IMG/VR virus record: IMGVR_UViG_3300045988_089479
Coordinates: 1 to 18,209 of that record
Length of the DNA stretch: 18,209 nt
Direction: 5' to 3' (one strand)
DNA from: a virus
The translations under genes were made by a program, and so were the position numbers. The notes under the pieces are model-generated. The model was not told where the DNA came from. It did not search any database and saw only the letters and a list, made by a program, of their open reading frames with translations. Below are positions 1 through 18,209 of the stretch, piece after piece. Positions within the stretch are counted from its first letter, which is position 1, and each line of letters opens with the position of its first letter.

Positions 1-99
1 ACTATCATGCAAATAGGAAGGGTGAGTGATATGTTCGATTCGGTGCTTATTATTTGCGCATGCGTTATCGGTATTGTTGTTGTTTTTGGTATGATATAG
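1..99. repeat. Left inverted terminal repeat (99 bp)
   Basis: Bases 1-99 equal the reverse complement of 18111-18209, compared base by base. Identity stops at position 100 (gag... versus tat...). ITRs are the hallmark of protein-primed linear phage genomes. Confidence 0.97.
87..95 (+). promoter_or_regulatory. Extended -10-like box TGGTATGAT inside the left ITR, reading inward
   Basis: The sequence matches TGnTATGAT. A GTG codon in frame with the first ORF starts at 102, exactly 6 nt after the hexamer, which is leaderless geometry. This is a motif match only. Confidence 0.4.
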
Positions 100-2254: not shown

Positions 2255-2263
2255 TGCTATAAT
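2255..2263 (+). promoter_or_regulatory. Extended -10-like box TGCTATAAT
   Basis: This is a perfect TGnTATAAT, 4 nt after the SSB stop codon and upstream of the TP/polymerase genes. Confidence 0.4.
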
Positions 2264-2282: not shown

Positions 2283-2307
2283 GAGAGCACCCTTATTGGG
2301 TGCTCTC
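2283..2307 (+). terminator. Stem-loop (10-bp perfect stem, 5-nt loop); partial terminator or 5'-UTR stabiliser
   Basis: gagagcaccc (2283-2292), loop ttatt, gggtgctctc (2298-2307). It is followed by pyrimidine-rich tctatct, which is only a weak U-tract. It lies between the -10 box at 2255 and the RBS of the next gene. Confidence 0.4.
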
Positions 2308-2329
2308 TCTATCTGAAAGGACTGCAACC

Positions 2330-3391
2330 ATGTCACGGAAGAGGAAGAAGCCAGCACCCCGCGCAGTCGTATCACGAAACTATCGCACACACCAAAATCC
2401 GGACATTAGCAACATTGCCATCAAAGCAGATAGACAGCAACGCAAGCGTGTCAAGAAGATTCAGGCCGCGCAAGCCCGCGCCGCACGCGACGTCAAACAA
2501 CTCGGCTCATACTCCCACTCGAATCTCGCCAAAACCGCAGACAAACAACTAGTCAACATCGCCAAAACGCTAGGCAAGGAGTGGGAACGGCAGAAGAAAC
2601 AGGCCATCGCGGAAGCGAAGGCAACACCCTACCATGCCACCGCCGTAGAAAAACCGACGAAAAAAGACTACATGTTCGCCCAGCGTACGCCTCTAACAGA
2701 TGCGCAGATCAGCGCGGAGCCGGTGGTGAAACGGCGTAAACTGCTCAGGCAGCAGCAGCGGAAAATCAATGCGGCACGACGGAAAATCAACGAATGGAAC
2801 AAGGCGCAGGCCATGCCCGCGAAAAGCGTGTATGACCAACGTGTGGCCGAAATCACCGGAACCACCGGTGAGGGTTTCGGACGCAATCAGATAATCCCGT
2901 CAAAACTCACCGATTTTCTTCAAATGACGAATGTGCTGAGTGATGAAGCGTTTGTGCGCTCCCAATTGGAGAGCGGCCACCGTAACGAGTTGCTTGAGCA
3001 GATGCATGACGCCGCCGAAATACTGGGTTTGCGTACCGAGCGGAAAAGCATCCCGTCCAAAAAGCGGGGAGCGGGCAGGCGGAGTAAAGACTTGTACGGC
3101 GAGCATGAGTGGCCGTCGTACATGAGTAGCGGACGCTACGAGGTGTTTGAGAAGATTCTCGCCACTACGCTCGGTTCGAAACGCCTTAAGCGGTTCCGCA
3201 GTCTATCCGACGCGCAGAAACGCGCGTTTATCGAACAGACCGACGCCCCCCGAATCGTATTCGACTGGGCGGTGTACGACCCAGTTCGGCACCTCTTCAA
3301 ATCGATATTCCGTGATAACAGCAAGGGTTATCAGCGCTCAAGACGGCAGTTTGACAGGTGGATGTCGGAAGCGGGCGCACTGGAAAAGTAG
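2330..3391 (+). CDS. Putative terminal protein (353 aa, very basic)
   Basis: The gene sits immediately upstream of the protein-primed polymerase, as in phi29 (gene 3 then gene 2). The genome has ITRs. The protein is strongly K/R-rich, with an N-terminal MSRKRKKPAPR. ATG 2330 follows GAAAGGA (2316-2322). The track start at 2300 (GTG) would run through the hairpin. I saw no direct sequence similarity to phi29 TP. Confidence 0.55.
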   Translation: MSRKRKKPAPRAVVSRNYRTHQNPDISNIAIKADRQQRKRVKKIQAAQARAARDVKQLGSYSHSNLAKTADKQLVNIAKTLGKEWERQKKQAIAEAKATPYHATAVEKPTKKDYMFAQRTPLTDAQISAEPVVKRRKLLRQQQRKINAARRKINEWNKAQAMPAKSVYDQRVAEITGTTGEGFGRNQIIPSKLTDFLQMTNVLSDEAFVRSQLESGHRNELLEQMHDAAEILGLRTERKSIPSKKRGAGRRSKDLYGEHEWPSYMSSGRYEVFEKILATTLGSKRLKRFRSLSDAQKRAFIEQTDAPRIVFDWAVYDPVRHLFKSIFRDNSKGYQRSRRQFDRWMSEAGALEK

Positions 3392-3418: not shown

Positions 3419-4873
3419 ATGACCATGCGGCAAGATAAAAGAGTGGGATTATGGTGTGTGGATAACGTCATACGTTTTACAGATGGGACTGTCATGCGCG
3501 ACATTGCCGCGCCCAATCGCCTTTTGGCGTCCATCATGTCAGGCGGCAAACTCACCGTCTACGTGACTGATCCAGAATTGCTTGAACCGTTTATGGCTCA
3601 CGTCGTACACTCCCTCCCGCACAACGAGTACAATGCTAGCTTGAGTTGGGATGCGATAGTGTCGAAAAAAGGCAAATTTTTCAGCTTCACGGCACGTGTT
3701 GACCGCGATAATTCCGCACGATTTTTCGACATATCGAATCTTTTACGAGAGAACTGCCGTATCACCATGACCGACACGCAACTGCTCAACATCCTGAAAG
3801 AATACGACAACCGTGGCTTGTGCAAAATCACCGCAGGTGGTGCAAGCATGGAAGCGTTCGCGTCCGGTGAATGGAAATGGTATTACGACAAATTTCCACA
3901 ACTGGAAACCGACGTCAAAAAGTCATTGCGTGACGCCTATATCGGCGGTTTCATGTTGGTCAAGGAAGGGATGTATGGCAAGGCTATCGACGTTGACTGC
4001 AATTCCATGTATCCGTCCATATTGCGAGATGAGTGGCTTCCGTGGGGCGAACCGGAACCATACGACGGAAAATATGAGCAGGATGATGACATGCCGTTGC
4101 ATTGTGATGAAATCACGTTTCGCGCGGAATTAAAACCGAACGGATACCCCTTTCTACTCGACAATCGAAGCGTGTACGGACTCAACCGTCTCACTTCGAC
4201 ACGTGGATATATCACGCGCGTGCTGACAGACATTGACCAACGATTATTGCACGAAAATTACGAAGTGAGCGTCTACAAGTATGTTAGGGGGTGGAAATTC
4301 CGACGCTCCAAAGGTTTCTTCCGTTCGTTCATTGATGACTGGGGGGGCTTGAAACAGCGGGCGACGGGTGAGAAACGGCAAATGGCGAAACTGATCATGA
4401 ACGCTCTTGTAGGCAAAATGGCGAGTCTGCCAAAAGGCGCCGTCATGCTACCGACCTCAAAAGACGGCATCACCCTCGACTGGGATGTCGCACAACGCGA
4501 AGAATCGAATTTGAAAACCGACTATCTGCCCGTACCAGTATGGGTCAACGCCTACGCGCGCGGCAAGCTCATGGACGTGTGCCACGCGAATGCCGATAGA
4601 CTCCTGTATGCGAACACGGATGGTTGTATTTTGAGCGGTTGGGGGCCGGTAAAGTCGTGTGACATACATCCAACCGAACTCGGCAAGTGGAAGATCGCCG
4701 CAAAATACGAGAGACTGACTATCCTTGGAATGAACCGTTATCAAGGATGGAGAGAAGACGGTGAAGTGGACGTCTGCATGGCCGGGAACATGCTCTCCCA
4801 GCCTATCCCCTACGAGAAGTTTAGACATGGCGTGCAAGTGCGAGATGATTACGGAACCGCGGTTATGCTATAA
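3419..4873 (+). CDS. Family-B protein-primed DNA polymerase (484 aa)
   Basis: The phi29-type motifs are present. Pre-motif A is YIGGF (phi29 YRGGF). Motif A is DVDCNSMYPS (phi29 FDVNSLYP). Motif B is KLIMNALVGKM (phi29 KLMLNSLYGKF). VNAYAR matches phi29 ITAWAR. Motif C is YANTDG (phi29 YCDTDS). The KxY region is LGKWKIAAKYERL (phi29 LGYW...KRAKYL). The A-to-B and B-to-C spacings leave room for TPR1- and TPR2-like insertions. Confidence 0.9.
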   Translation: MTMRQDKRVGLWCVDNVIRFTDGTVMRDIAAPNRLLASIMSGGKLTVYVTDPELLEPFMAHVVHSLPHNEYNASLSWDAIVSKKGKFFSFTARVDRDNSARFFDISNLLRENCRITMTDTQLLNILKEYDNRGLCKITAGGASMEAFASGEWKWYYDKFPQLETDVKKSLRDAYIGGFMLVKEGMYGKAIDVDCNSMYPSILRDEWLPWGEPEPYDGKYEQDDDMPLHCDEITFRAELKPNGYPFLLDNRSVYGLNRLTSTRGYITRVLTDIDQRLLHENYEVSVYKYVRGWKFRRSKGFFRSFIDDWGGLKQRATGEKRQMAKLIMNALVGKMASLPKGAVMLPTSKDGITLDWDVAQREESNLKTDYLPVPVWVNAYARGKLMDVCHANADRLLYANTDGCILSGWGPVKSCDIHPTELGKWKIAAKYERLTILGMNRYQGWREDGEVDVCMAGNMLSQPIPYEKFRHGVQVRDDYGTAVML

Positions 4874-4874
4874 T
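4866..4874 (+). promoter_or_regulatory. Extended -10-like box TGCTATAAT overlapping the polymerase stop codon
   Basis: This is a perfect TGnTATAAT (TG 4866-4867, TATAAT 4869-4874). The predicted transcription start is around 4879-4881. Confidence 0.45.
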
Positions 4875-4879
4875 ATCTA

Positions 4880-5047
4880 TGTCTTGTGAGCGCCAATTTT
4901 TGACTGGGAGCGACACAGGTCGGACTACCACGGCTGAGAATGCCGCCGACGGTGATTTGCTGTTGTGGTAACAGTGCCCTACGAATTTCAATTTTGCGCT
5001 CTGATAGGACAGTCAGACCCTCGCGTGATTGCGGGGGTCATTTTATT
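4880..5047 (+). ncRNA. Candidate structured non-coding RNA of about 168 nt with a phi29 pRNA-like fold (hypothesis)
   Basis: The region is bounded by the -10 box and an intrinsic terminator, and it lacks an SD-led ORF. Hand-derived pairings follow. A terminal helix pairs 4880-4893 with 4996-5011 (14 bp with a 2-nt bulge). A second stem pairs 4914-4916 and 4919-4923 with 4946-4950 and 4952-4954. It carries a 7-nt one-sided bulge, ACUACCA (4924-4930), and a capping hairpin 4931-4945. A third hairpin spans 4960-4974 and has loop GUGGU (4965-4969), which is complementary to the bulge. Confidence 0.45.
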
Positions 5048-5049
5048 TT
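5016..5049 (+). terminator. Intrinsic terminator at the end of the early/replication region
   Basis: A 9-bp GC-rich stem pairs gaccctcgc (5016-5024) with gcgggggtc (5031-5039), including one G-U pair. The loop is 6 nt and is followed by attttatttt. Confidence 0.75.
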
Positions 5050-5059
5050 GCTTGCGGCA

Positions 5060-5068
5060 TGATATAAT
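5060..5068 (+). promoter_or_regulatory. Extended -10-like box TGATATAAT (candidate late promoter)
   Basis: This is a perfect TGnTATAAT just downstream of the terminator. It lies 36 nt before the scaffold start codon, whose RBS is TAAGGAG (5091-5097). Confidence 0.5.
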
Positions 5069-5103
5069 TTTGGTGAAAACACTACCAGCGTAAGGAGTTT
5101 TGC

Positions 5104-5391
5104 ATGGCAGACCCAAATACCGAAGGCGAGGAAACCACTACTCCGCCGCCGACCGAAGAGGAACAGCAGACGGAAACCGTGAACGATGAAGTCAAGCCGA
5201 AAGAGGAACAGGAACCGGAACCGAAGCAGGAGCCGGACGTTTCCGCACGCCTTGACAGCATCGAAAAGGAATTGGCCGCACTGAAAGCCATGATGGACAC
5301 GCTCGGCTACACCGAACCCACCCCCACCGACAACGACAACGATGGCGACGGCGACAACGACGGCGAGTCAATCGAAGATTTGTTCGACTAA
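5104..5391 (+). CDS. Putative scaffolding protein (95 aa, highly acidic)
   Basis: The gene lies immediately upstream of the capsid gene, as phi29 gp7 does, and is of similar size. It has a central helical segment (ARLDSIEKELAALKAMMDTL) flanked by E/D/P/T-rich tails. Confidence 0.6.
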   Translation: MADPNTEGEETTTPPPTEEEQQTETVNDEVKPKEEQEPEPKQEPDVSARLDSIEKELAALKAMMDTLGYTEPTPTDNDNDGDGDNDGESIEDLFD

Positions 5392-5411: not shown

Positions 5412-7124
5412 ATGTCCGATATCCGACCACTTGCAGGCAAAGGTGACGTTGAGATCTTCAACGCCGTCCGCTCCGCCACATCCCCCCAGTTTCAGGTGCG
5501 TATCCCGTCCGCGACTCAAGGCAATATCCGCAACGCGGTGGACACCATGCGCAGCTTTCCCTACTTGCGCGACGAGTTCACCGGCGTGCTAATCCAGCGT
5601 TTGATTGGACTGTATATCCAGCATGCGGATTGGGATGATCCGCTCAAGCTGATTGGTTCGCCGCGCACCCTCAAGCGTTACGGTAGCACTTATGAGCAGG
5701 CCGCAGTGGGACTCGTCAAAGCCCGCACCCGTAACTTCAACAAAGAGTACCTTGGGGGTGACGTGTATGGGCGTTACTCATTGCCGACTGCTTCGGTGTT
5801 CCACCCCCTAACTTTCGACCACTATTACCCCGTGACCATTCCGGAAGACGCCTTGCTGACGGCTTTCGACGGCGAAAGCGGCATGTCGGATTATATCAGC
5901 GAAATTATGAACGCTCCTATCCTCTCGGATAGAAACGACATGTATTTGATGAAGACGCAGACGTTCGCCGAATACGCTCGTAAGGGCGGTTTCTACCGCG
6001 TGCATACCCCCGACGTTGGCAAGGCCGACTCTGCCGAGGCCGACGCGAAGGGCCTGCTGCGACTCATTCAACAGGTGGCGAACGAACTCAAGGCGTCGCC
6101 AATGAGCGCCATGCCGCGCTATAACGCCATGAGCTGGGTGACTCCGTGGCGTGATTCGGAAGCCATTCTCTTCGCTACGCCGCAGGTTATCGCCGCACTC
6201 AACGTCGAAGCCCTCGCCGCCGCGTTCAACATCGATAAAGTGAACATTCCGTATCGCATTATCCCAATTCCGGAGGATATGTTCGGCATCGGTGGCGCGG
6301 CCGGTAAGGTTCAGGCCGTCCTGACCACGGAAGACTTCTTCTTCTGCTGGGACGAAATGCTTGAGACCACGAATTCCCCCGTGAACCCGATTGACGGAAC
6401 GCGCAACATCTTCTACAAGCACCGTGGGTCAATCACCCCTAACCCGTTCGCGAACGCGGTACTGTTTTGGACCGGTGAAGGTTCCAGCGAGTCCGTGACC
6501 CTGCCGGATACGCTCACCACCTCCACGCCTAAGTTCGAGCTGCGCGTGAGGAAGTATGGTCAGCTTGCCATCACTCCGCAGAACGTGTCGCGTGGTGACT
6601 TGGTGCAGGTGGTTTCCACCATCACGAGCGCCAACGAGGAGACGGCTACGTTCCAGCCGACAGGCATTAAGTATGCCGTCGAAGGCGCCACTTCTCAGTT
6701 CACCACCATTGACAATGACGGCATTCTGCGTTGCGGCCTTGACGAAACCGCCGAAACGCTGAAAGTCACCGCTCAGGCAACCTACATCAACCCGGCCACG
6801 CCTGAAATCGACCAGACGGTTTCCGCCGCACTGTCCGTGCCGGTGGTCGGCCAATGGCTCGGAGGCTGGAAAGCCGGAGCCATCGAGTCCATCGAGATTC
6901 AGGGCGAAAAGACTGTCAAGAACGGCGGTCATGTCGCACTCAAGGCGATTGCCACCAAGACGGACGGCAACACCGCGGACGTGACCAACCTCGCCATGTG
7001 GACTGTGGACAAAAACGCAACCATCACCCCCAACGGCGTGCTGACCGGGACCACTGCCGGTACCGCCAACGTTACTGCGAAATTCGCGGGAGCCACCGGA
7101 ACGGCAAAGGTCACCGTCGCATAG
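5412..7124 (+). CDS. Major capsid protein, phi29 gp8-like, with C-terminal Ig-like (BIG2-type) domains
   Basis: By-eye similarity to phi29 gp8 includes VEIFNAVRS ~ YDIVNAIRNS, LIQRLIGLY ~ LVDRIGLV, and FANAVLFWTG ~ FANAVAFVSG. The C-terminus contains two segments typical of Big_2 domains (YAVEGATSQFTTIDNDGILRCG...LKVTAQAT and WTVDKNATITPNGVLTGTTAGTANVTAKFAGATGTAKVTV). Confidence 0.9.
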   Translation: MSDIRPLAGKGDVEIFNAVRSATSPQFQVRIPSATQGNIRNAVDTMRSFPYLRDEFTGVLIQRLIGLYIQHADWDDPLKLIGSPRTLKRYGSTYEQAAVGLVKARTRNFNKEYLGGDVYGRYSLPTASVFHPLTFDHYYPVTIPEDALLTAFDGESGMSDYISEIMNAPILSDRNDMYLMKTQTFAEYARKGGFYRVHTPDVGKADSAEADAKGLLRLIQQVANELKASPMSAMPRYNAMSWVTPWRDSEAILFATPQVIAALNVEALAAAFNIDKVNIPYRIIPIPEDMFGIGGAAGKVQAVLTTEDFFFCWDEMLETTNSPVNPIDGTRNIFYKHRGSITPNPFANAVLFWTGEGSSESVTLPDTLTTSTPKFELRVRKYGQLAITPQNVSRGDLVQVVSTITSANEETATFQPTGIKYAVEGATSQFTTIDNDGILRCGLDETAETLKVTAQATYINPATPEIDQTVSAALSVPVVGQWLGGWKAGAIESIEIQGEKTVKNGGHVALKAIATKTDGNTADVTNLAMWTVDKNATITPNGVLTGTTAGTANVTAKFAGATGTAKVTVA

Positions 7125-9465: not shown

Positions 9466-9480
9466 AGGATGGTGAACAAC

Positions 9481-10419
9481 ATGGGTAAGCGCAATAACGC
9501 ACGTAAGGCGACGCACTGGGATAATCAAAGCGTGCTTGGTAGCATGTGGGGCAATCTCAATCTGCCTGAAATGCGGCAGTCACTCAGAATCAATCAGTAC
9601 ATGAAGCTGATTGAAATGTTGGCGGTGTCCCGTTTCAGGTGGATCAATCTGCCGCCGTATATCGACGAAAGATATTTGGAGCTGACTCTGTTCGAAAACG
9701 GCCTTGCCCTCTTTTTCCCCGACAAACGCAAGGGAGTACACCGTTTTATGGTCACTTCCGGCAACATTGGCGGAGTGAACAATTACAATAATCCTACGCT
9801 TTTTCAGCCCGTCGCCACCAATTATTCACACCCGCAAATCGGGAGCAAGCAGTGTGTGCCGATTTGGGATAATCAGTTGCGTTGCACCATGATTGATGTC
9901 ATGTGGAATTACGCGACACGTTTGGCTATCGCGGACAGGGCGCTTGACGTCAACTTGGACAATATCAGCGTACCGCTGATTATCGCCACGTCCGAAACCA
10001 ACAAACTCACCGCCGAAAATCTAATGAAGGCGCGTGAAGACGGAGACCCCTACGTCTACACGTATGACAGCGCCGATATCACCGGCATGTTTCAGACGTT
10101 CCCCAACATGACGCCATTCCTCGCGGATAAAATCATCACCACCAAAACGCAGGTATGGAACGAACTCGTCAATTATCTCGGCATTGACAACAGTACGACG
10201 GAAAAGAAGGAGCGACTGCTTGAGTCGGAAGTGACGGCAGGTAATTCGCGTACGAACGTTTTCCGCCTGAGCTATCTCAAGGCACGTCAACAGGCGTGCG
10301 ACACCATTAACCGACTGTGGCCGCAAATGGCCGATTCAGGAAAACCAATTAGTATCGAATGGAACGACACCACCAGCGGTGGCTTGCTGGACGTCGATGG
10401 AAACAAGGAGGAAGAATAA
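9481..10419 (+). CDS. Portal / upper collar connector protein, phi29 gp10-like
   Basis: By-eye alignment to phi29 gp10 gives FRWINLPPYIDERYLELTLFENG ~ [23 protein letters not shown] and WNELVNYLGIDNSTTEKKERLLESEV ~ [26 protein letters not shown]. The track start at 9469 has no spaced SD. ATG 9481 follows AGGATGGTG (9466-9474). The start is uncertain by 12 nt. Confidence 0.9.
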   Translation: MGKRNNARKATHWDNQSVLGSMWGNLNLPEMRQSLRINQYMKLIEMLAVSRFRWINLPPYIDERYLELTLFENGLALFFPDKRKGVHRFMVTSGNIGGVNNYNNPTLFQPVATNYSHPQIGSKQCVPIWDNQLRCTMIDVMWNYATRLAIADRALDVNLDNISVPLIIATSETNKLTAENLMKAREDGDPYVYTYDSADITGMFQTFPNMTPFLADKIITTKTQVWNELVNYLGIDNSTTEKKERLLESEVTAGNSRTNVFRLSYLKARQQACDTINRLWPQMADSGKPISIEWNDTTSGGLLDVDGNKEEE

Positions 10420-15625: not shown

Positions 15626-15629
15626 AAGT

Positions 15630-15638
15630 GTGGTATAC
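15630..15638 (+). promoter_or_regulatory. Extended -10-like box TGGTATACT
   Basis: The box matches TGnTATACT and lies 5 nt after the upstream stop codon. The 9-mer GGTATACTT also occurs at 11232-11240, just after the lower-collar stop codon. Confidence 0.35.
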
Positions 15639-15699
15639 TTAATAGTGGCAGTGGTTGTATGATGACCTTTCCCCTTGAACGGCTGCCAATGATAGGTTG

Positions 15700-15743
15700 G
15701 TGGAGGGCGTGCGAGTCATGGCGCACGCCCTCCACTAGTTTTT
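15700..15743 (+). terminator. Strong intrinsic terminator immediately upstream of the packaging ATPase RBS
   Basis: A 14-bp perfect GC-rich stem pairs gtggagggcgtgcg (15700-15713) with cgcacgccctccac (15722-15735). The loop is 8 nt and is followed by tagttttt. AGGAGGG (15744-15750) and ATG 15759 come next. Confidence 0.75.
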
Positions 15744-15758
15744 AGGAGGGTTGCAAGC

Positions 15759-16826
15759 ATGACATTGCAAACGCTTAACGAGAGCGATTATTACGATTTG
15801 CACAATCTGTTGACGCGAAACGCGCCGTGGAACTTCATAATCGGCGCACGCGGACTAGGCAAAACGTTCGCCGCGAAACGGTATGGTATCAAAGAGTACA
15901 TCAAACACGGCCACGAATTCATTTATCTTCGGCGCACCGACGTGGAACAACATCGCAAGGAGACCTTCTTCAAGGATATCCAAGAGTTCTTCCCCTTATA
16001 TGAATTTCGTGTCAATGGCGAAAAAGGGCAGATTCATAAGACGTCGTGGGACGAGAAGGATTGGCGGACATGTTGCTATTTCGTCGCGCTCTCGCAAGCG
16101 GGCGGACTCAAGTCAGTGGCCTATCCAAAAGTACACTTGATTATCTTTGACGAGATTTTCCCCGACAACCTACGCTTTCTAAGCAATGAAGTGAACTCGT
16201 TCAGCGAGTTCTACAATACCGTTGATCGTTGGCAGGATAGGACAAAAGTACTATTCCTTTCAAACGCAGTGCAAAAGGCTAATCCATATTTTGCAAAATA
16301 TCGGCTGGACATTGGTGCACAGCAAACCAACCGGCAACAATACAAACTCTATTGCGGCGGGTTTATCTGTTTGGAATTGGCTGACTATGGTGGCTTCTCG
16401 GCAAAAGTAGCACAATCCAAGTTCGGCAGGTTTCTTGAAAAGTACGATGGCGACTACGCGGATTATGCGATCCGCAACAAATTCCGCGACGAGTCGGACA
16501 CTTTGATATCGCCAATTCCTAGCGACGGCGAGCTGTCTTACATTTTGGACACTACCGATTACGCACGTTTTGGAATATGGGTTTCCATATCCGAGCGCGA
16601 CGGACATGTTTCACAATATGTTTCACGACGTATTCCAAAAGACAACAATCGCCCCGTCTATACGCTCGACCCGAACCACGTTGACGAAAAAACATGGTTC
16701 GTCAAAAAATCAGATGATATAATACGGCGACTCACAACCGGCTACCGGCTTGGTAAAATAAGATTCGATGACTCTCAGGTCAAAGCCGATTTTGGCTTGA
16801 TTATAGGCAAGCTGTTAGGCAAGTAG
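15759..16826 (+). CDS. DNA encapsidation (packaging) ATPase, phi29 gp16-like
   Basis: The Walker A region NFIIGARGLGKTFA matches phi29 NFVIGARGIGKSYA. FIYLRR matches FIYVRR. The Walker B region LIIFDEIF matches TIVFDEF. LSNAVQKANPYF matches LSNAVSVVNPYF. The size is similar (355 versus 332 aa). Confidence 0.92.
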   Translation: MTLQTLNESDYYDLHNLLTRNAPWNFIIGARGLGKTFAAKRYGIKEYIKHGHEFIYLRRTDVEQHRKETFFKDIQEFFPLYEFRVNGEKGQIHKTSWDEKDWRTCCYFVALSQAGGLKSVAYPKVHLIIFDEIFPDNLRFLSNEVNSFSEFYNTVDRWQDRTKVLFLSNAVQKANPYFAKYRLDIGAQQTNRQQYKLYCGGFICLELADYGGFSAKVAQSKFGRFLEKYDGDYADYAIRNKFRDESDTLISPIPSDGELSYILDTTDYARFGIWVSISERDGHVSQYVSRRIPKDNNRPVYTLDPNHVDEKTWFVKKSDDIIRRLTTGYRLGKIRFDDSQVKADFGLIIGKLLGK

Positions 16827-18110: not shown

Positions 18111-18209
18111 CTATATCATACCAAAAACAACAACAATACCGATAACGCATGCGCAAATAATAAGCACCGAATCGAACATATCACTCACCCTTCCTATTTG
18201 CATGATAGT
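18111..18209. repeat. Right inverted terminal repeat (99 bp)
   Basis: This is the exact reverse complement of 1-99. Confidence 0.97.

What the first reader, a model, noticed from the sequence alone, without database searches (positions are those of the whole stretch)
4866..5049. Candidate packaging-RNA (pRNA)-like gene between the polymerase and scaffold genes
The 230-bp gap between the early and late modules has three elements in order. The first is a perfect extended -10 box (TGCTATAAT, 4866-4874). The second is about 168 nt with no SD-led ORF. The third is a good intrinsic terminator (5016-5049). The predicted size is close to that of the 174-nt phi29 pRNA, and the genome encodes the gp16-type ATPase and gp10-type portal that work with pRNA in phi29.

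Folding by hand gives the same element order as phi29 pRNA domain I:
- The predicted 5' end (4880-4893) pairs with 4996-5011 in a 14-bp helix with a 2-nt bulge, resembling the A helix.
- A second stem pairs 4914-4923 with 4946-4954. It carries a one-sided 7-nt bulge, ACUACCA (4924-4930), and is capped by a small hairpin (4931-4945). This resembles the C/E helices with the right-hand loop.
- A following hairpin (4960-4974) has loop GUGGU (4965-4969), resembling the D helix with the left-hand loop.
- ACCA (4927-4930) in the bulge is complementary to UGGU (4966-4969) in the loop, and the pairing can extend to 5 bp. phi29 uses a 4-bp AACC/UUGG inter-loop pairing to build the pRNA ring.
- U-rich unpaired stretches sit at the junction.
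- The terminator hairpin would correspond to a 3' domain II.

As far as I know, pRNAs are established only for Bacillus phi29 relatives and are encoded at the left genome end. A pRNA at the early/late boundary of a divergent phage would be new.
Basis: partly seen in the sequence, partly recalled or inferred. Interest (0 to 1): 0.85.

Follow-up and report, generated by a model that had tools for sequence, protein, structure and literature searches.

The report
pRNA-like structured RNA gene, Bifidobacterium phage
Between the polymerase and head genes, this small phi29-type Bifidobacterium phage encodes a conserved, about 170-nt folded RNA built like the phi29 "packaging RNA", which suggests that RNA-containing DNA-packaging motors are not confined to Bacillus phages.

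Summary
The window is a complete 18.2-kb phi29-type podophage genome with 99-bp inverted terminal repeats. Its closest relatives are Bifidobacterium phages BP1 and BD811P1-3.

The 230-bp gap from polymerase to scaffold gene contains, in order:
- a conserved extended -10 box
- a variable 6-7 nt spacer
- a 133-nt structured core (4880-5012)
- a variable linker
- a terminator hairpin whose stem covaries
- a second conserved extended -10 box

About 95 related genomes carry the element at the same place. That fold is a terminal A helix, a three-way junction, a C helix with a 7-nt one-sided bulge capped by a 4-bp E hairpin, and a D hairpin. In 90 distinct sequences, 24 of 41 pairs show compensatory changes, against 9.8±1.7 in shuffles.

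The bulge/D-loop pairing RCCA/UGGY covaries (G-C 72, G-U 10, A-U 8, no mismatch), with several independent changes on a tree.

Element order and sizes match my folds of the phi29 and GA-1 pRNAs. The genome encodes gp16-type ATPase and gp10-type portal proteins.

Rfam RF00044 does not match. It also misses the annotated Nf and GA-1 pRNAs, so this is uninformative.

A role in packaging, and pairing between separate molecules, remain inferred. My verdict is that a real RNA gene is nearly certain and that it is a pRNA equivalent at about 0.6.

The parts
4866..4874 (+). Extended -10 promoter TGCTATAAT for the RNA. It overlaps the polymerase stop codon (TAA, 4871-4873).
   Evidence: In 80 relatives the box is TGCTATAAT (62), TGTTATAAT (9) or TGCTATGAT (7). 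Mean pairwise identity is 0.95, against 0.38 for the spacer that follows.
4875..4880 (+). Variable spacer and predicted transcription start, 6-7 nt after the -10 box. The RNA would begin where the A helix begins.
   Evidence: The spacer is 6 or 7 nt long in 79 of 80 relatives. Its pairwise identity is 0.38. The start site is inferred and was not measured.
4880..5012 (+). Structured core of the RNA, equivalent to pRNA domain I (133 nt).
   Evidence: RNAalifold on 80 sequences. 99.1% of cells are paired and 20 pairs show compensatory changes, against 9.2±1.5 in shuffles. On 90 distinct sequences, 24 of 41 pairs do so, against 9.8±1.7, and slid controls give 4-8. The covariance model R1 scores 132.8 bits here and has no other hit above 19 bits in the window.
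4881..4908 (+). 5' strand of the interrupted A helix: 4881-4885, 4888-4893, 4895-4896, 4900-4902 and 4906-4908.
   Evidence: Pairs are listed. Covariation is seen at, for example, 4892/4997 (G-C 68, A-U 11). GGG/CCC shows A-U replacements in L197 and L007.
4914..4923 (+). 5' strand of the C helix (4914-4916 and 4920-4923).
   Evidence: It pairs with 4946-4949 and 4952-4954. Four of seven pairs show compensatory changes (helices 6 and 7).
4924..4930 (+). One-sided 7-nt bulge ACUACCA (CE-loop-like). Its last four bases, ACCA (4927-4930), are complementary to the D loop.
   Evidence: 4927/4969 is G-C 72, G-U 10, A-U 8, with no mismatch in 90 sequences. 4928/4968 is C-G in all 90. 4929/4967 is C-G 86, U-G 4. 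4930/4966 is A-U 80, G-U 1, with 9 mismatches. On a tree of the flanks the bulge base changes 4 times and the loop base 6 times, never giving A-C.
4931..4945 (+). E hairpin CGGC-UGAGAAU-GCCG. It is followed directly by the 3' strand of the C helix.
   Evidence: The stem is almost invariant (helix 9). The loop is UGAGAAU in 56 sequences and UGAAAAC in 21.
4946..4954 (+). 3' strand of the C helix.
4958..4976 (+). D hairpin: 7-bp stem (4958-4964/4970-4976) and loop GUGGU (4965-4969). UGGU (4966-4969) is complementary to the bulge.
   Evidence: All 7 stem pairs show compensatory changes on 90 sequences and 99.7% of cells are paired (helix 10). The loop GUGGY stays constant while the stem sequence is completely replaced in L197, L235 and L290.
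4977..5010 (+). 3' strand of the interrupted A helix.
5016..5049 (+). Intrinsic terminator hairpin (stem 5016-5039) plus U-run. It is a possible counterpart of pRNA domain II.
   Evidence: Four of six stem pairs show compensatory changes (helix 11). The loop GUGAUU(G) is the same in 73 of 80 relatives, which is unusual for a plain terminator.
5060..5068 (+). Second extended -10 box, TGATATAAT. It is the promoter of the late (scaffold/capsid) operon.
   Evidence: It reads TGATATAAT in 73 of 80 relatives (71 with, 2 without the following T) and has pairwise identity 0.97.
3419..4873 (+). Context: protein-primed-type family B DNA polymerase, the last gene of the early operon.
   Evidence: Pfam DNA_pol_B_2, 1.4e-28. 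PHROG 1907.
9469..10419 (+). Context: phi29 gp10-type portal (connector) with a basic N-terminus, MVNNMGKRNNARK.
   Evidence: Pfam Phage_connector, 6.5e-40. Translation.
15759..16826 (+). Context: phi29 gp16-type packaging ATPase. In phi29 this protein docks on the pRNA.
   Evidence: Pfam Podovirus_Gp16, 3.1e-44. Matches full-length phi29 gp16 (PDB 7jqq) at E = 1e-36, residues 8-341 against 3-318.

Best explanation
Positions 4880-5049 encode a non-coding RNA of about 165-170 nt.

Transcription. It is transcribed from its own extended -10 promoter (4866-4874) and ended by the hairpin at 5016-5049. Read-through early transcripts from the polymerase operon would end at the same terminator.

Fold. 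The 133-nt core folds like domain I of phi29 prohead RNA:
- The 5' and 3' ends form a long interrupted A helix.
- A three-way junction carries a C helix with a one-sided 7-nt bulge capped by a 4-bp E hairpin.
- A D hairpin follows.
- The last four bases of the bulge (RCCA) pair with the D loop (UGGY).

Proposed mechanism, inferred by analogy with phi29:
- The bulge/loop pairing forms between neighbouring molecules, so that several copies close into a ring around the gp10-type portal of the prohead.
- The A helices project outward and dock the gp16-type ATPase.
- The ring is needed for packaging the protein-capped linear genome and is released afterwards.

What is shown here: the conserved promoter/spacer/RNA/linker/terminator layout, the fold, its strand, the bulge-loop covariation, and the presence of the protein partners.

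What is inferred: the transcript ends, the intermolecular nature of the pairing, binding to the prohead, and the role in packaging.
For: 1. Conservation. The element is present at the same site in all 5 GenBank relatives, in 80 IMG/VR relatives, and in further contigs. None of the GenBank records annotates it.
2. Modular conservation. Pairwise identity is 0.95 for the -10 box, 0.38 for the spacer, 0.82 for the core, 0.51 for the linker, 0.85 for the terminator and 0.97 for the second -10 box.
3. Fold. It was recovered independently by RNAalifold. Covariation is strong.
4. Strand. 10% of paired cells are G-U. Pairing would drop from 99.1% to 89.4% on the other strand, so this is a plus-strand RNA.
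5. Kissing pair. 4927/4969 is G-C, G-U or A-U and never A-C, with at least 4 and 6 independent changes of the two bases. The window itself (A-U) sits next to a G-U relative inside a G-C clade.
6. Match to true pRNAs. My folds of phi29 and GA-1 domain I compare with this RNA as follows:
   - bulge on the 5' side only: 9, 6 and 7 nt (phi29, GA-1, this RNA)
   - E stem: 4 bp in all three
   - E loop: 6, 6 and 7 nt
   - no base between the E stem and the returning C strand in any of the three
   - C-to-D junction: UUU, none, AUU
   - D stem: 6, 8 and 7 bp
   - D loop: 5 nt in phi29 and here
   - kissing bases at the 3' end of the bulge in phi29 and here
7. Protein partners. A gp16-type ATPase and a gp10-type portal are present.
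8. Genome order. The order polymerase then RNA at the end of the early operon is the same as in phi29, Nf and GA-1.
9. Other clades. RNAs of similar architecture lie at the same site in other actinobacterial phi29-type clades.
Against: - No sequence or covariance-model similarity to known pRNAs was found. RF00044 is absent even at E ≤ 10, and my model R1 does not find phi29, Nf or GA-1 pRNAs. RF00044 also misses the annotated pRNAs of Nf and GA-1, so this test has little power.
- Only one of the four kissing pairs covaries, and the terminal A-U pair is broken in 9 of 90 sequences.
- Nothing distinguishes an intermolecular kiss from an intramolecular pseudoknot.
- There is no expression, prohead-binding or packaging data.
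- A loose descriptor of this topology hits about 20 places per 18 kb in shuffled sequence. Topological resemblance alone is therefore weak. The case rests on covariation plus context.
Confidence: 0.6

Rival explanations
1. It is a structured RNA whose bulge/loop pairing is an intramolecular pseudoknot, and it acts on transcription at the early/late boundary. One possibility is a put-like element that makes RNA polymerase read through the terminator at 5016-5049. Another is a switch that times late gene expression.
For: It lies directly upstream of a strong terminator at the boundary between the replication and structural modules. All genes are on one strand. Loop-bulge contacts within one molecule are geometrically possible across three-way junctions (general knowledge). 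The fold and covariation fit any structured RNA.
Against: A nearly invariant extended -10 promoter (5060-5068, identity 0.97) sits between the terminator and the late genes, so read-through is not needed. The linker to the terminator is variable, and I saw no alternative pairing with the terminator arms (by inspection; not tested formally). The element-by-element match to pRNA and the presence of gp16 and gp10 homologues would be a coincidence under this model.
Confidence: 0.2
2. It is the structured 3' end of the early (polymerase) mRNA. The fold plus terminator protect the early transcripts from 3' exonucleases or insulate early from late transcription, and the RNA has no function in trans.
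For: It follows the polymerase stop codon directly and ends at a terminator. Early transcripts must run into it.
Against: A protective 3' structure does not need 133 nt with invariant loops, a conserved bulge and loop that covary with each other, or its own conserved -10 box placed 6-7 nt before the first paired base.
Confidence: 0.1
3. It is a riboswitch or attenuator-type leader. It would sense a ligand or protein and control the downstream scaffold and capsid genes through the terminator.
For: A structured RNA followed by an intrinsic terminator upstream of genes is the classical arrangement.
Against: No Rfam family matches. The closing helix does not overlap the terminator. A variable linker and an independent conserved promoter lie between the terminator and the genes.
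Confidence: 0.05
4. It is not a functional RNA. The conservation would reflect DNA-level signals, such as promoters and regulator binding sites, and the fold would be a chance result.
For: Two real promoter-like boxes flank the region.
Against: 24 of 41 pairs show compensatory changes, against 9.8±1.7 in shuffles and 4-8 in slid controls. G-U pairs are strand-specific. The D stem is fully replaced in divergent members while pairing is kept.
Confidence: 0.02

Closest known systems
Prohead/packaging RNA (pRNA) of Bacillus phage phi29 and relatives (Rfam RF00044; Nf, GA-1, M2, SF5, B103)
   Same: - It is encoded by a small protein-primed podophage with a gp16-type ATPase and a gp10-type portal.
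- It has its own promoter, at the end of the early operon downstream of the polymerase gene.
- Total length is about 170 nt, with a structured domain of about 120-133 nt followed by a 3' hairpin.
- The terminal A helix is formed by the two ends.
- The three-way junction, the C helix with a one-sided bulge, the 4-bp E hairpin and the D hairpin are all present.
- Four bases at the 3' end of the bulge are complementary to the D loop.
   Different: - There is no detectable sequence or covariance-model similarity.
- The host is an actinobacterium and the RNA is G+C-richer (52% against roughly 35-40%).
- The junction from the A helix to the C helix has 5 unpaired bases instead of 1.
- The A helix is broken by several internal loops and has no obvious CCA bulge.
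- The early operon runs in the same direction as the late operon, so the gene abuts the scaffold gene instead of the genome end.
- Function and ring formation are untested.
Putative pRNAs proposed for Streptococcus phage Cp-1 and annotated in Actinomyces phage Av-1 (misc_RNA 16295-16402)
   Same: They are predictions of a pRNA in phi29-type phages outside Bacillus. Av-1 also infects an actinobacterium (PMC6266182 cites the Cp-1 proposal).
   Different: Those were single-sequence predictions without comparative support. The Av-1 feature overlaps ORFs on the other strand near the right genome end. Model R1 finds nothing in either genome. A published covariance model built from Nf and GA-1 could not reliably find the Cp-1 candidate (PMC6266182).
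RNAs of similar architecture seen here in other actinobacterial phi29-type clades: Curtobacterium phages Pize/Grotle/Ayka, the IMG/VR clade L091-L099, L095, and Bifidobacterium asteroides phages BadAztec/BadAargau
   Same: They lie at the same site, upstream of the scaffold and capsid genes and followed by a terminator. Most are preceded by an extended -10 box. They have a closing helix, a C helix with a 6-8 nt 5'-side bulge, a 4-bp E hairpin with a 5-6 nt loop, and a D hairpin.
   Different: Neither nhmmer nor R1 detects them from each other. Support is thin: 6 sequences for L091-L099 (92.4% paired, 4 compensatory pairs) and fewer for the others. Bulge/loop complementarity there is 3-5 bp and does not covary in my samples.
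HK022 put RNAs and other cis-acting processive antitermination RNAs
   Same: They are structured phage RNAs located just after a promoter and before a terminator.
   Different: As I recall, put RNAs are two-hairpin elements of about 70 nt, without a three-way junction or bulge/loop complementarity. Here an independent conserved promoter follows the terminator.

Membership tests
phi29-type prohead RNA (pRNA) | Encoded by a phage that has the gp16-type packaging ATPase and the gp10-type connector | tested here: met
   Podovirus_Gp16 at 3.1e-44, Phage_connector at 6.5e-40 and Phi29_MCP at 2.3e-56. PDB 7jqq (phi29 gp16) at 1e-36.
phi29-type prohead RNA (pRNA) | The 5' and 3' ends of a domain of about 120 nt pair to form the A helix | tested here: met
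   4881-4908 pairs with 4977-5010, giving 19 bp in five segments. Compensatory changes occur in 4 of the 5 segments on 80 sequences and in all 5 on 90.
phi29-type prohead RNA (pRNA) | Three-way junction carrying a C helix with a one-sided (CE) bulge capped by the E hairpin, followed by a D hairpin | tested here: met
   RNAalifold consensus. Helices 6, 7, 9 and 10. The element sizes match my folds of phi29 and GA-1.
phi29-type prohead RNA (pRNA) | Watson-Crick complementarity between the CE bulge and the D loop | tested here: met
   RCCA/UGGY. 4927/4969 is G-C 72, G-U 10, A-U 8 with no mismatch. There are several independent changes. The terminal pair is broken in 9 of 90 sequences.
phi29-type prohead RNA (pRNA) | The bulge/loop pairing forms between molecules and builds a ring on the prohead | not testable with these tools
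   This needs native gels, trans-complementation of loop mutants, or cryo-EM of proheads.
phi29-type prohead RNA (pRNA) | Required for DNA packaging (RNase-sensitive packaging; absent from mature virions) | not testable with these tools
   No experimental data on BP1, BD811P1-3 or relatives were found in the held literature.
phi29-type prohead RNA (pRNA) | Match to the Rfam model RF00044 | tested here: not met
   There is no hit at the gathering score or at E ≤ 10 on 4700-5250. As a control, RF00044 finds phi29 (145 bits) but not the annotated pRNAs of Nf and GA-1. The model therefore covers only part of the accepted family.
phi29-type prohead RNA (pRNA) | Own promoter, at the end of the early operon downstream of the polymerase gene, with a 3' hairpin domain or terminator | tested here: met
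   The conserved -10 box, the 6-7 nt spacer and the terminator are shown. The same gene order is annotated in phi29, Nf and GA-1. Transcript ends were not measured.
Riboswitch / transcription attenuator | The closing helix of the sensor competes with the terminator, and the regulated gene has no promoter of its own downstream | tested here: not met
   A variable linker separates the core from the terminator. A conserved TGATATAAT box (5060-5068) follows the terminator. No Rfam family matches.

The most novel reading that the evidence does not exclude
A packaging RNA is not a peculiarity of Bacillus phi29 relatives. It would instead be an ancestral and general component of the gp16/gp10-type packaging motor. 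Under this reading, the Bifidobacterium phage RNA described here and the similarly built RNAs at the same site in Curtobacterium, B. asteroides and uncultured actinobacterial podophages are all pRNAs.
Probability: 0.4. Interest if true: 0.8.

Novelty: new member of a known kind. Interest (0 to 1): 0.66.

Why it matters
The phi29 pRNA is the only known RNA that is an integral part of a viral DNA-packaging motor. Reviews still describe it as unique to phi29 and its Bacillus-infecting relatives (PMC5066667, PMC11476376).

A pRNA-like gene with comparative support in gut Bifidobacterium phages, and probably in other actinobacterial podophages, would have four consequences:
- It would move the origin of the RNA component back to the common ancestor of these phages.
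- It would supply very divergent natural sequences for working out which features of pRNA matter for ATPase docking and ring formation.
- It would give new building blocks for pRNA-based RNA nanotechnology.
- It would add a missing gene to the annotation of a common family of human-gut phages.

The idea can be tested directly, because BP1 and BD811P1-3 are cultured.

Tried and rejected
- Rfam at gathering and permissive thresholds gave no family. Only weak hits driven by the terminator appeared.
- The single-sequence MFE pairs 4926-4934 with the D region.
- Covariance model R1, built from 80 relatives, was searched with filters off in Cp-1, BadAztec4, Av-1 and Pize. It was searched with default filters in 23 further loci, including phi29, GA-1 and Nf. 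Nothing was found. The family is not recognisable beyond its own clade at the sequence level.
- I wrote a hand-made descriptor for the pRNA topology plus a 4-bp kiss.
  - The loose form finds the Nf pRNA and this RNA. A version loosened in some constraints and tightened in others gives about 20 hits per 18 kb in shuffled genomes.
  - That second version loses the true pRNAs.
  - I dropped it because it does not discriminate.
It added only 4 true members.
- An nhmmer profile of the Curtobacterium element does not reach the other actinophage clades.
- The second largest non-coding gap (15626-15758) was considered as an alternative pRNA site. It holds a promoter-like box and a large hairpin, but it is not conserved even in BP1, so I rejected it.
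- A structure-guided alignment across clades, with a covariance model built from true pRNAs, could not be made.
Full report
**What the window is.** The 18,209-bp window is a complete linear phage genome.
- Its two ends are a perfect 99-bp inverted repeat, and every sizeable gene is on the plus strand.
- The genes are those of a phi29-type podophage:
  - a family B polymerase of the protein-primed type (3419-4873)
  - a Phi29_MCP capsid protein (5412-7124)
  - a gp10-type connector (9469-10419)
  - a lower collar protein
  - a 355-aa Podovirus_Gp16 packaging ATPase (15759-16826), which aligns over its full length with phi29 gp16 (PDB 7jqq, E = 1e-36)
- The nearest cultured relatives are Bifidobacterium phages BP1 and BD811P1-3, at 77-79% nucleotide identity.
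- In all of them the gap between the polymerase gene and a small scaffold-like gene is 227-230 bp, and nothing is annotated there.

**Check of the observation.**
- TGCTATAAT lies at 4866-4874 and overlaps the polymerase stop codon.
- A terminator has its stem at 5016-5039, followed by a T-run.
- A second extended -10 box, TGATATAAT, lies at 5060-5068.
- Perfect TGNTATAAT boxes are rare in the genome: 5 against 0.40 expected, with 0 of 200 shuffles reaching 5. Those on the plus strand sit at module boundaries.
- No ORF longer than 42 aa lies wholly within the gap.
- The RNA from 4880 to 5049 folds better than shuffles (z = -3.3), but the MFE of the single sequence mispairs the D region.

**Comparative evidence that it is a real structured RNA.**

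*Distribution.*
- I collected the homologous region from 5 GenBank relatives and 80 IMG/VR contigs found through the capsid protein.
- Sixteen more sequences were added to the alignment: 11 new IMG/VR and 3 metagenome contigs found by a pattern scan and covariance-model or HMM searches, plus two earlier loci cut off at a contig end.
- Every relative has the element at the same place.

*Modular conservation.* The spacer length puts the expected start site at the first base of the terminal helix.

| Segment | Mean pairwise identity |
|---|---|
| First -10 box | 0.95 |
| Spacer of 6-7 nt | 0.38 |
| Core | 0.82 |
| Linker | 0.51 |
| Terminator | 0.85 |
| Second -10 box | 0.97 |

*Pair counts.*
- On that alignment, 99.1% of cells are paired.
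- 20 of 47 pairs show compensatory double changes, against 9.2±1.5 in shuffles (0 of 500 shuffles reach it) and 1-6 in slid controls.
- On 90 distinct sequences of the core, the figures are 24 of 41 pairs, against 9.8±1.7 in shuffles and 4-8 in slid controls.
- All seven pairs of the D stem covary.
- In the most divergent members (L197, L235, L290) the C and D stems are entirely different sequences that still pair, while the bulge and loop motifs stay the same.

*Strand.* Ten percent of paired cells are G-U. On the opposite strand pairing would fall to 89.4%. The structure therefore belongs to a plus-strand RNA.

**Anatomy in window coordinates.**
- The interrupted A helix has five segments:
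  - 4881-4885/5006-5010
  - 4888-4893/4996-5001
  - 4895-4896/4988-4989
  - 4900-4902/4982-4984
  - 4906-4908/4977-4979
- There are five unpaired bases at 4909-4913.
- The C helix pairs 4914-4916 with 4952-4954 and 4920-4923 with 4946-4949.
- The one-sided bulge ACUACCA lies at 4924-4930.
- The E hairpin CGGC-UGAGAAU-GCCG lies at 4931-4945. The returning C strand follows it directly.
- The junction AUU lies at 4955-4957.
- The D hairpin pairs 4958-4964 with 4970-4976 and has the loop GUGGU.
- After a short linker comes the terminator hairpin. Its stem covaries, but its loop GUGAUU(G) is the same in 73 of 80 relatives. This hints that the hairpin is more than a terminator.

**The bulge/loop pairing.** ACCA (4927-4930) is complementary to UGGU (4966-4969). 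The counts across 90 sequences are as follows.

| Pair | Counts |
|---|---|
| 4927/4969 | G-C 72, G-U 10, A-U 8, no mismatch |
| 4928/4968 | C-G in all 90 |
| 4929/4967 | C-G 86, U-G 4 |
| 4930/4966 | A-U 80, G-U 1, mismatch 9 |

- On a neighbour-joining tree of the flanking coding sequence, the bulge base changes at least 4 times and the loop base at least 6 times. The combination A-C never appears.
- The window itself (A-U) is sister to a G-U sequence inside a G-C clade. This is the classical path through a wobble intermediate.
- This is real but narrow support, since only one of the four pairs is informative.
- It does not tell whether the pairing forms within one molecule or between molecules.

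**Comparison with known pRNAs.**
- Rfam's RF00044 does not match the window, either at the gathering score or at E ≤ 10.
- As a control I ran Rfam on phi29, Nf and GA-1. It finds the phi29 pRNA (145 bits) but not the annotated pRNAs of Nf and GA-1. The negative result therefore says little.
- Published work states that pRNAs share only about 12% sequence identity but keep their secondary structure (PMC5066667).
- I folded domain I of phi29 and GA-1. The element order is the same as here, and the sizes are close:

| Element | phi29 | GA-1 | this RNA |
|---|---|---|---|
| Bulge on the 5' side only | 9 nt | 6 nt | 7 nt |
| E stem | 4 bp | 4 bp | 4 bp |
| E loop | 6 nt | 6 nt | 7 nt |
| Bases between E stem and returning C strand | 0 | 0 | 0 |
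| C-to-D junction | UUU | none | AUU |
| D stem | 6 bp | 8 bp | 7 bp |
| D loop | 5 nt | 3 nt | 5 nt |

- In phi29 and here, the kissing bases are the last four of the bulge.
- Genome position also agrees once the direction of transcription is considered. In phi29, Nf and GA-1 the pRNA gene has its own promoter at the end of the leftward early operon, downstream of the polymerase gene. Here the early operon runs rightward, so the same position abuts the late operon.
- There are also differences:
  - There are five unpaired bases between the A and C helices.
  - The A helix is more interrupted and has no obvious CCA bulge.
  - The RNA is G+C-richer.
  - There is no recognisable sequence similarity. 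My model R1 does not find the Bacillus pRNAs either.

**Other clades.** These leads were followed only in part.
- Curtobacterium phage Pize has a 115-nt RNA (z = -4.2) with the same layout, followed by a terminator, just before its scaffold and capsid genes. It is conserved in Grotle, Ellison17, Prophecy and Ayka, with compensatory changes in the closing and C helices seen by eye.
- An uncultured clade (L091-L094, L097, L099) has the following elements in order:
  - an extended -10 box
  - a closing helix
  - a C helix with the 7-nt bulge AUCGGCU
  - an E hairpin CACC-GUGAUA-GGUG
  - a D hairpin
  - a terminator

  On its six sequences, 92.4% of cells are paired against 35-52% when slid, and 4 pairs are compensatory.
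- BadAztec/BadAargau phages have TGCTATAGT at the polymerase stop codon, a closing helix with two compensatory pairs, and a GC hairpin.
- Bulge/loop complementarity of 3-5 bp can be drawn in each clade, but it does not vary within my small samples.

**Rival explanations.**
- A transcriptional role is the main alternative. It could be put-like antitermination, an attenuator or a riboswitch, because the element precedes a terminator at the early/late boundary.
- Three things argue against it:
  - A nearly invariant promoter lies between the terminator and the late genes.
  - A variable linker separates the core from the terminator, with no evident competing pairing.
  - The detailed match to pRNA architecture occurs in a genome that carries the two proteins pRNA works with.
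- A purely protective 3' structure for early mRNAs would not need invariant loops, a covarying bulge/loop pair, or a dedicated promoter.
- A chance fold is excluded by the covariation.

**Literature.**
- Within the held library I found no report of a pRNA in Bifidobacterium, Curtobacterium or related actinophages.
- A 2024 review of phi29-like phages that includes BD811P1 calls pRNA a feature unique to phi29 and related Bacillus phages (PMC11476376).
- Earlier single-sequence proposals exist for Cp-1 (cited in PMC6266182). The Av-1 GenBank record also annotates a 'packaging RNA'.

**Verdict.**
- A conserved, independently transcribed, structured plus-strand RNA is close to certain.
- That it is the functional counterpart of pRNA is the best-supported reading, at about 0.6. 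Its role in packaging and the intermolecular nature of its kissing pair remain to be shown.
- It would be a new and very divergent member of a known kind, and the first with comparative support outside the Bacillus phages.

Noticed in passing
window 1-99 and 18111-18209: A perfect 99-bp inverted terminal repeat. The window is therefore a complete linear genome of the protein-primed type. The ORF at 2300-3391, upstream of the polymerase gene, has no family hit and may be the terminal protein.
   Followed up: partly
window 15626-15758: This is the second largest non-coding gap, between the endolysin and ATPase genes. It has an extended -10-like box TGGTATACT (15631-15639) and a 16-bp hairpin (about 15698-15737) followed by UAGUUUUU. 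It folds with z = -4.2 but is not conserved even in BP1.
   Followed up: yes
window 5025-5031 (loop of the terminator hairpin): The loop GUGAUU(G) is identical in 73 of 80 relatives while the stem covaries. This is unusual for a plain terminator and suggests a sequence-specific role, possibly like pRNA domain II.
   Followed up: partly
window 4935-4941 (E loop): The loop has two main forms, UGAGAAU (56) and UGAAAAC (21). The G-to-A and U-to-C changes are linked: only 2 sequences have G with C, and none has A with U. The forms are scattered over the tree. This may reflect recombination or a G-U/A-C isosteric contact.
   Followed up: no
L111 (GA-1) 1719-1879 and L112 (Nf) 120-290: The Rfam model RF00044 (gathering score 100 bits) detects the phi29 pRNA but not the annotated pRNAs of GA-1 and Nf. 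The Rfam family covers only part of the accepted pRNA family.
   Followed up: yes
L089 (Curtobacterium phage Pize) 3936-4050; L113-L116 about 362-480: A conserved structured RNA with a pRNA-like layout, followed by a terminator, lies upstream of the scaffold and capsid genes of Curtobacterium phages. The D-loop region contains the palindrome UUGCAA, and the bulge carries part of the same motif.
   Followed up: partly
L091 1981-2091 and homologues in L092, L093, L094, L097, L099; L095 944-1048: Uncultured actinobacterial phi29-type contigs carry an extended -10 box, an RNA of about 110 nt with the same layout (7-nt bulge AUCGGCU, E hairpin CACC-GUGAUA-GGUG) and a terminator at the same genomic site.
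   Followed up: partly
L087 (Bifidobacterium phage BadAztec4) 3745-3930: TGCTATAGT lies at the polymerase stop codon. It is followed by a closing helix GUGAGCG/CGCUCAC, an inner helix with two compensatory pairs relative to BadAargau2, and a GC-rich hairpin. A bulge AAACC next to a hairpin with loop UUAAGU can be drawn, but the fold is ambiguous.
   Followed up: partly
L088 (Actinomyces phage Av-1) 16295-16402: The GenBank record annotates a 'packaging RNA' that overlaps two minus-strand ORFs near the right genome end. It is not detected by Rfam or by R1. The site syntenic with the element studied here (about 4508-4600) holds only a short region plus a terminator.
   Followed up: partly
window 2255-2263 and 16715-16723: Two further perfect TGNTATAAT boxes lie on the plus strand. 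One is just before the ORF at 2300-3391, and the other is inside the 3' end of the ATPase gene, before the last gene cluster. They are probably promoters.
   Followed up: no
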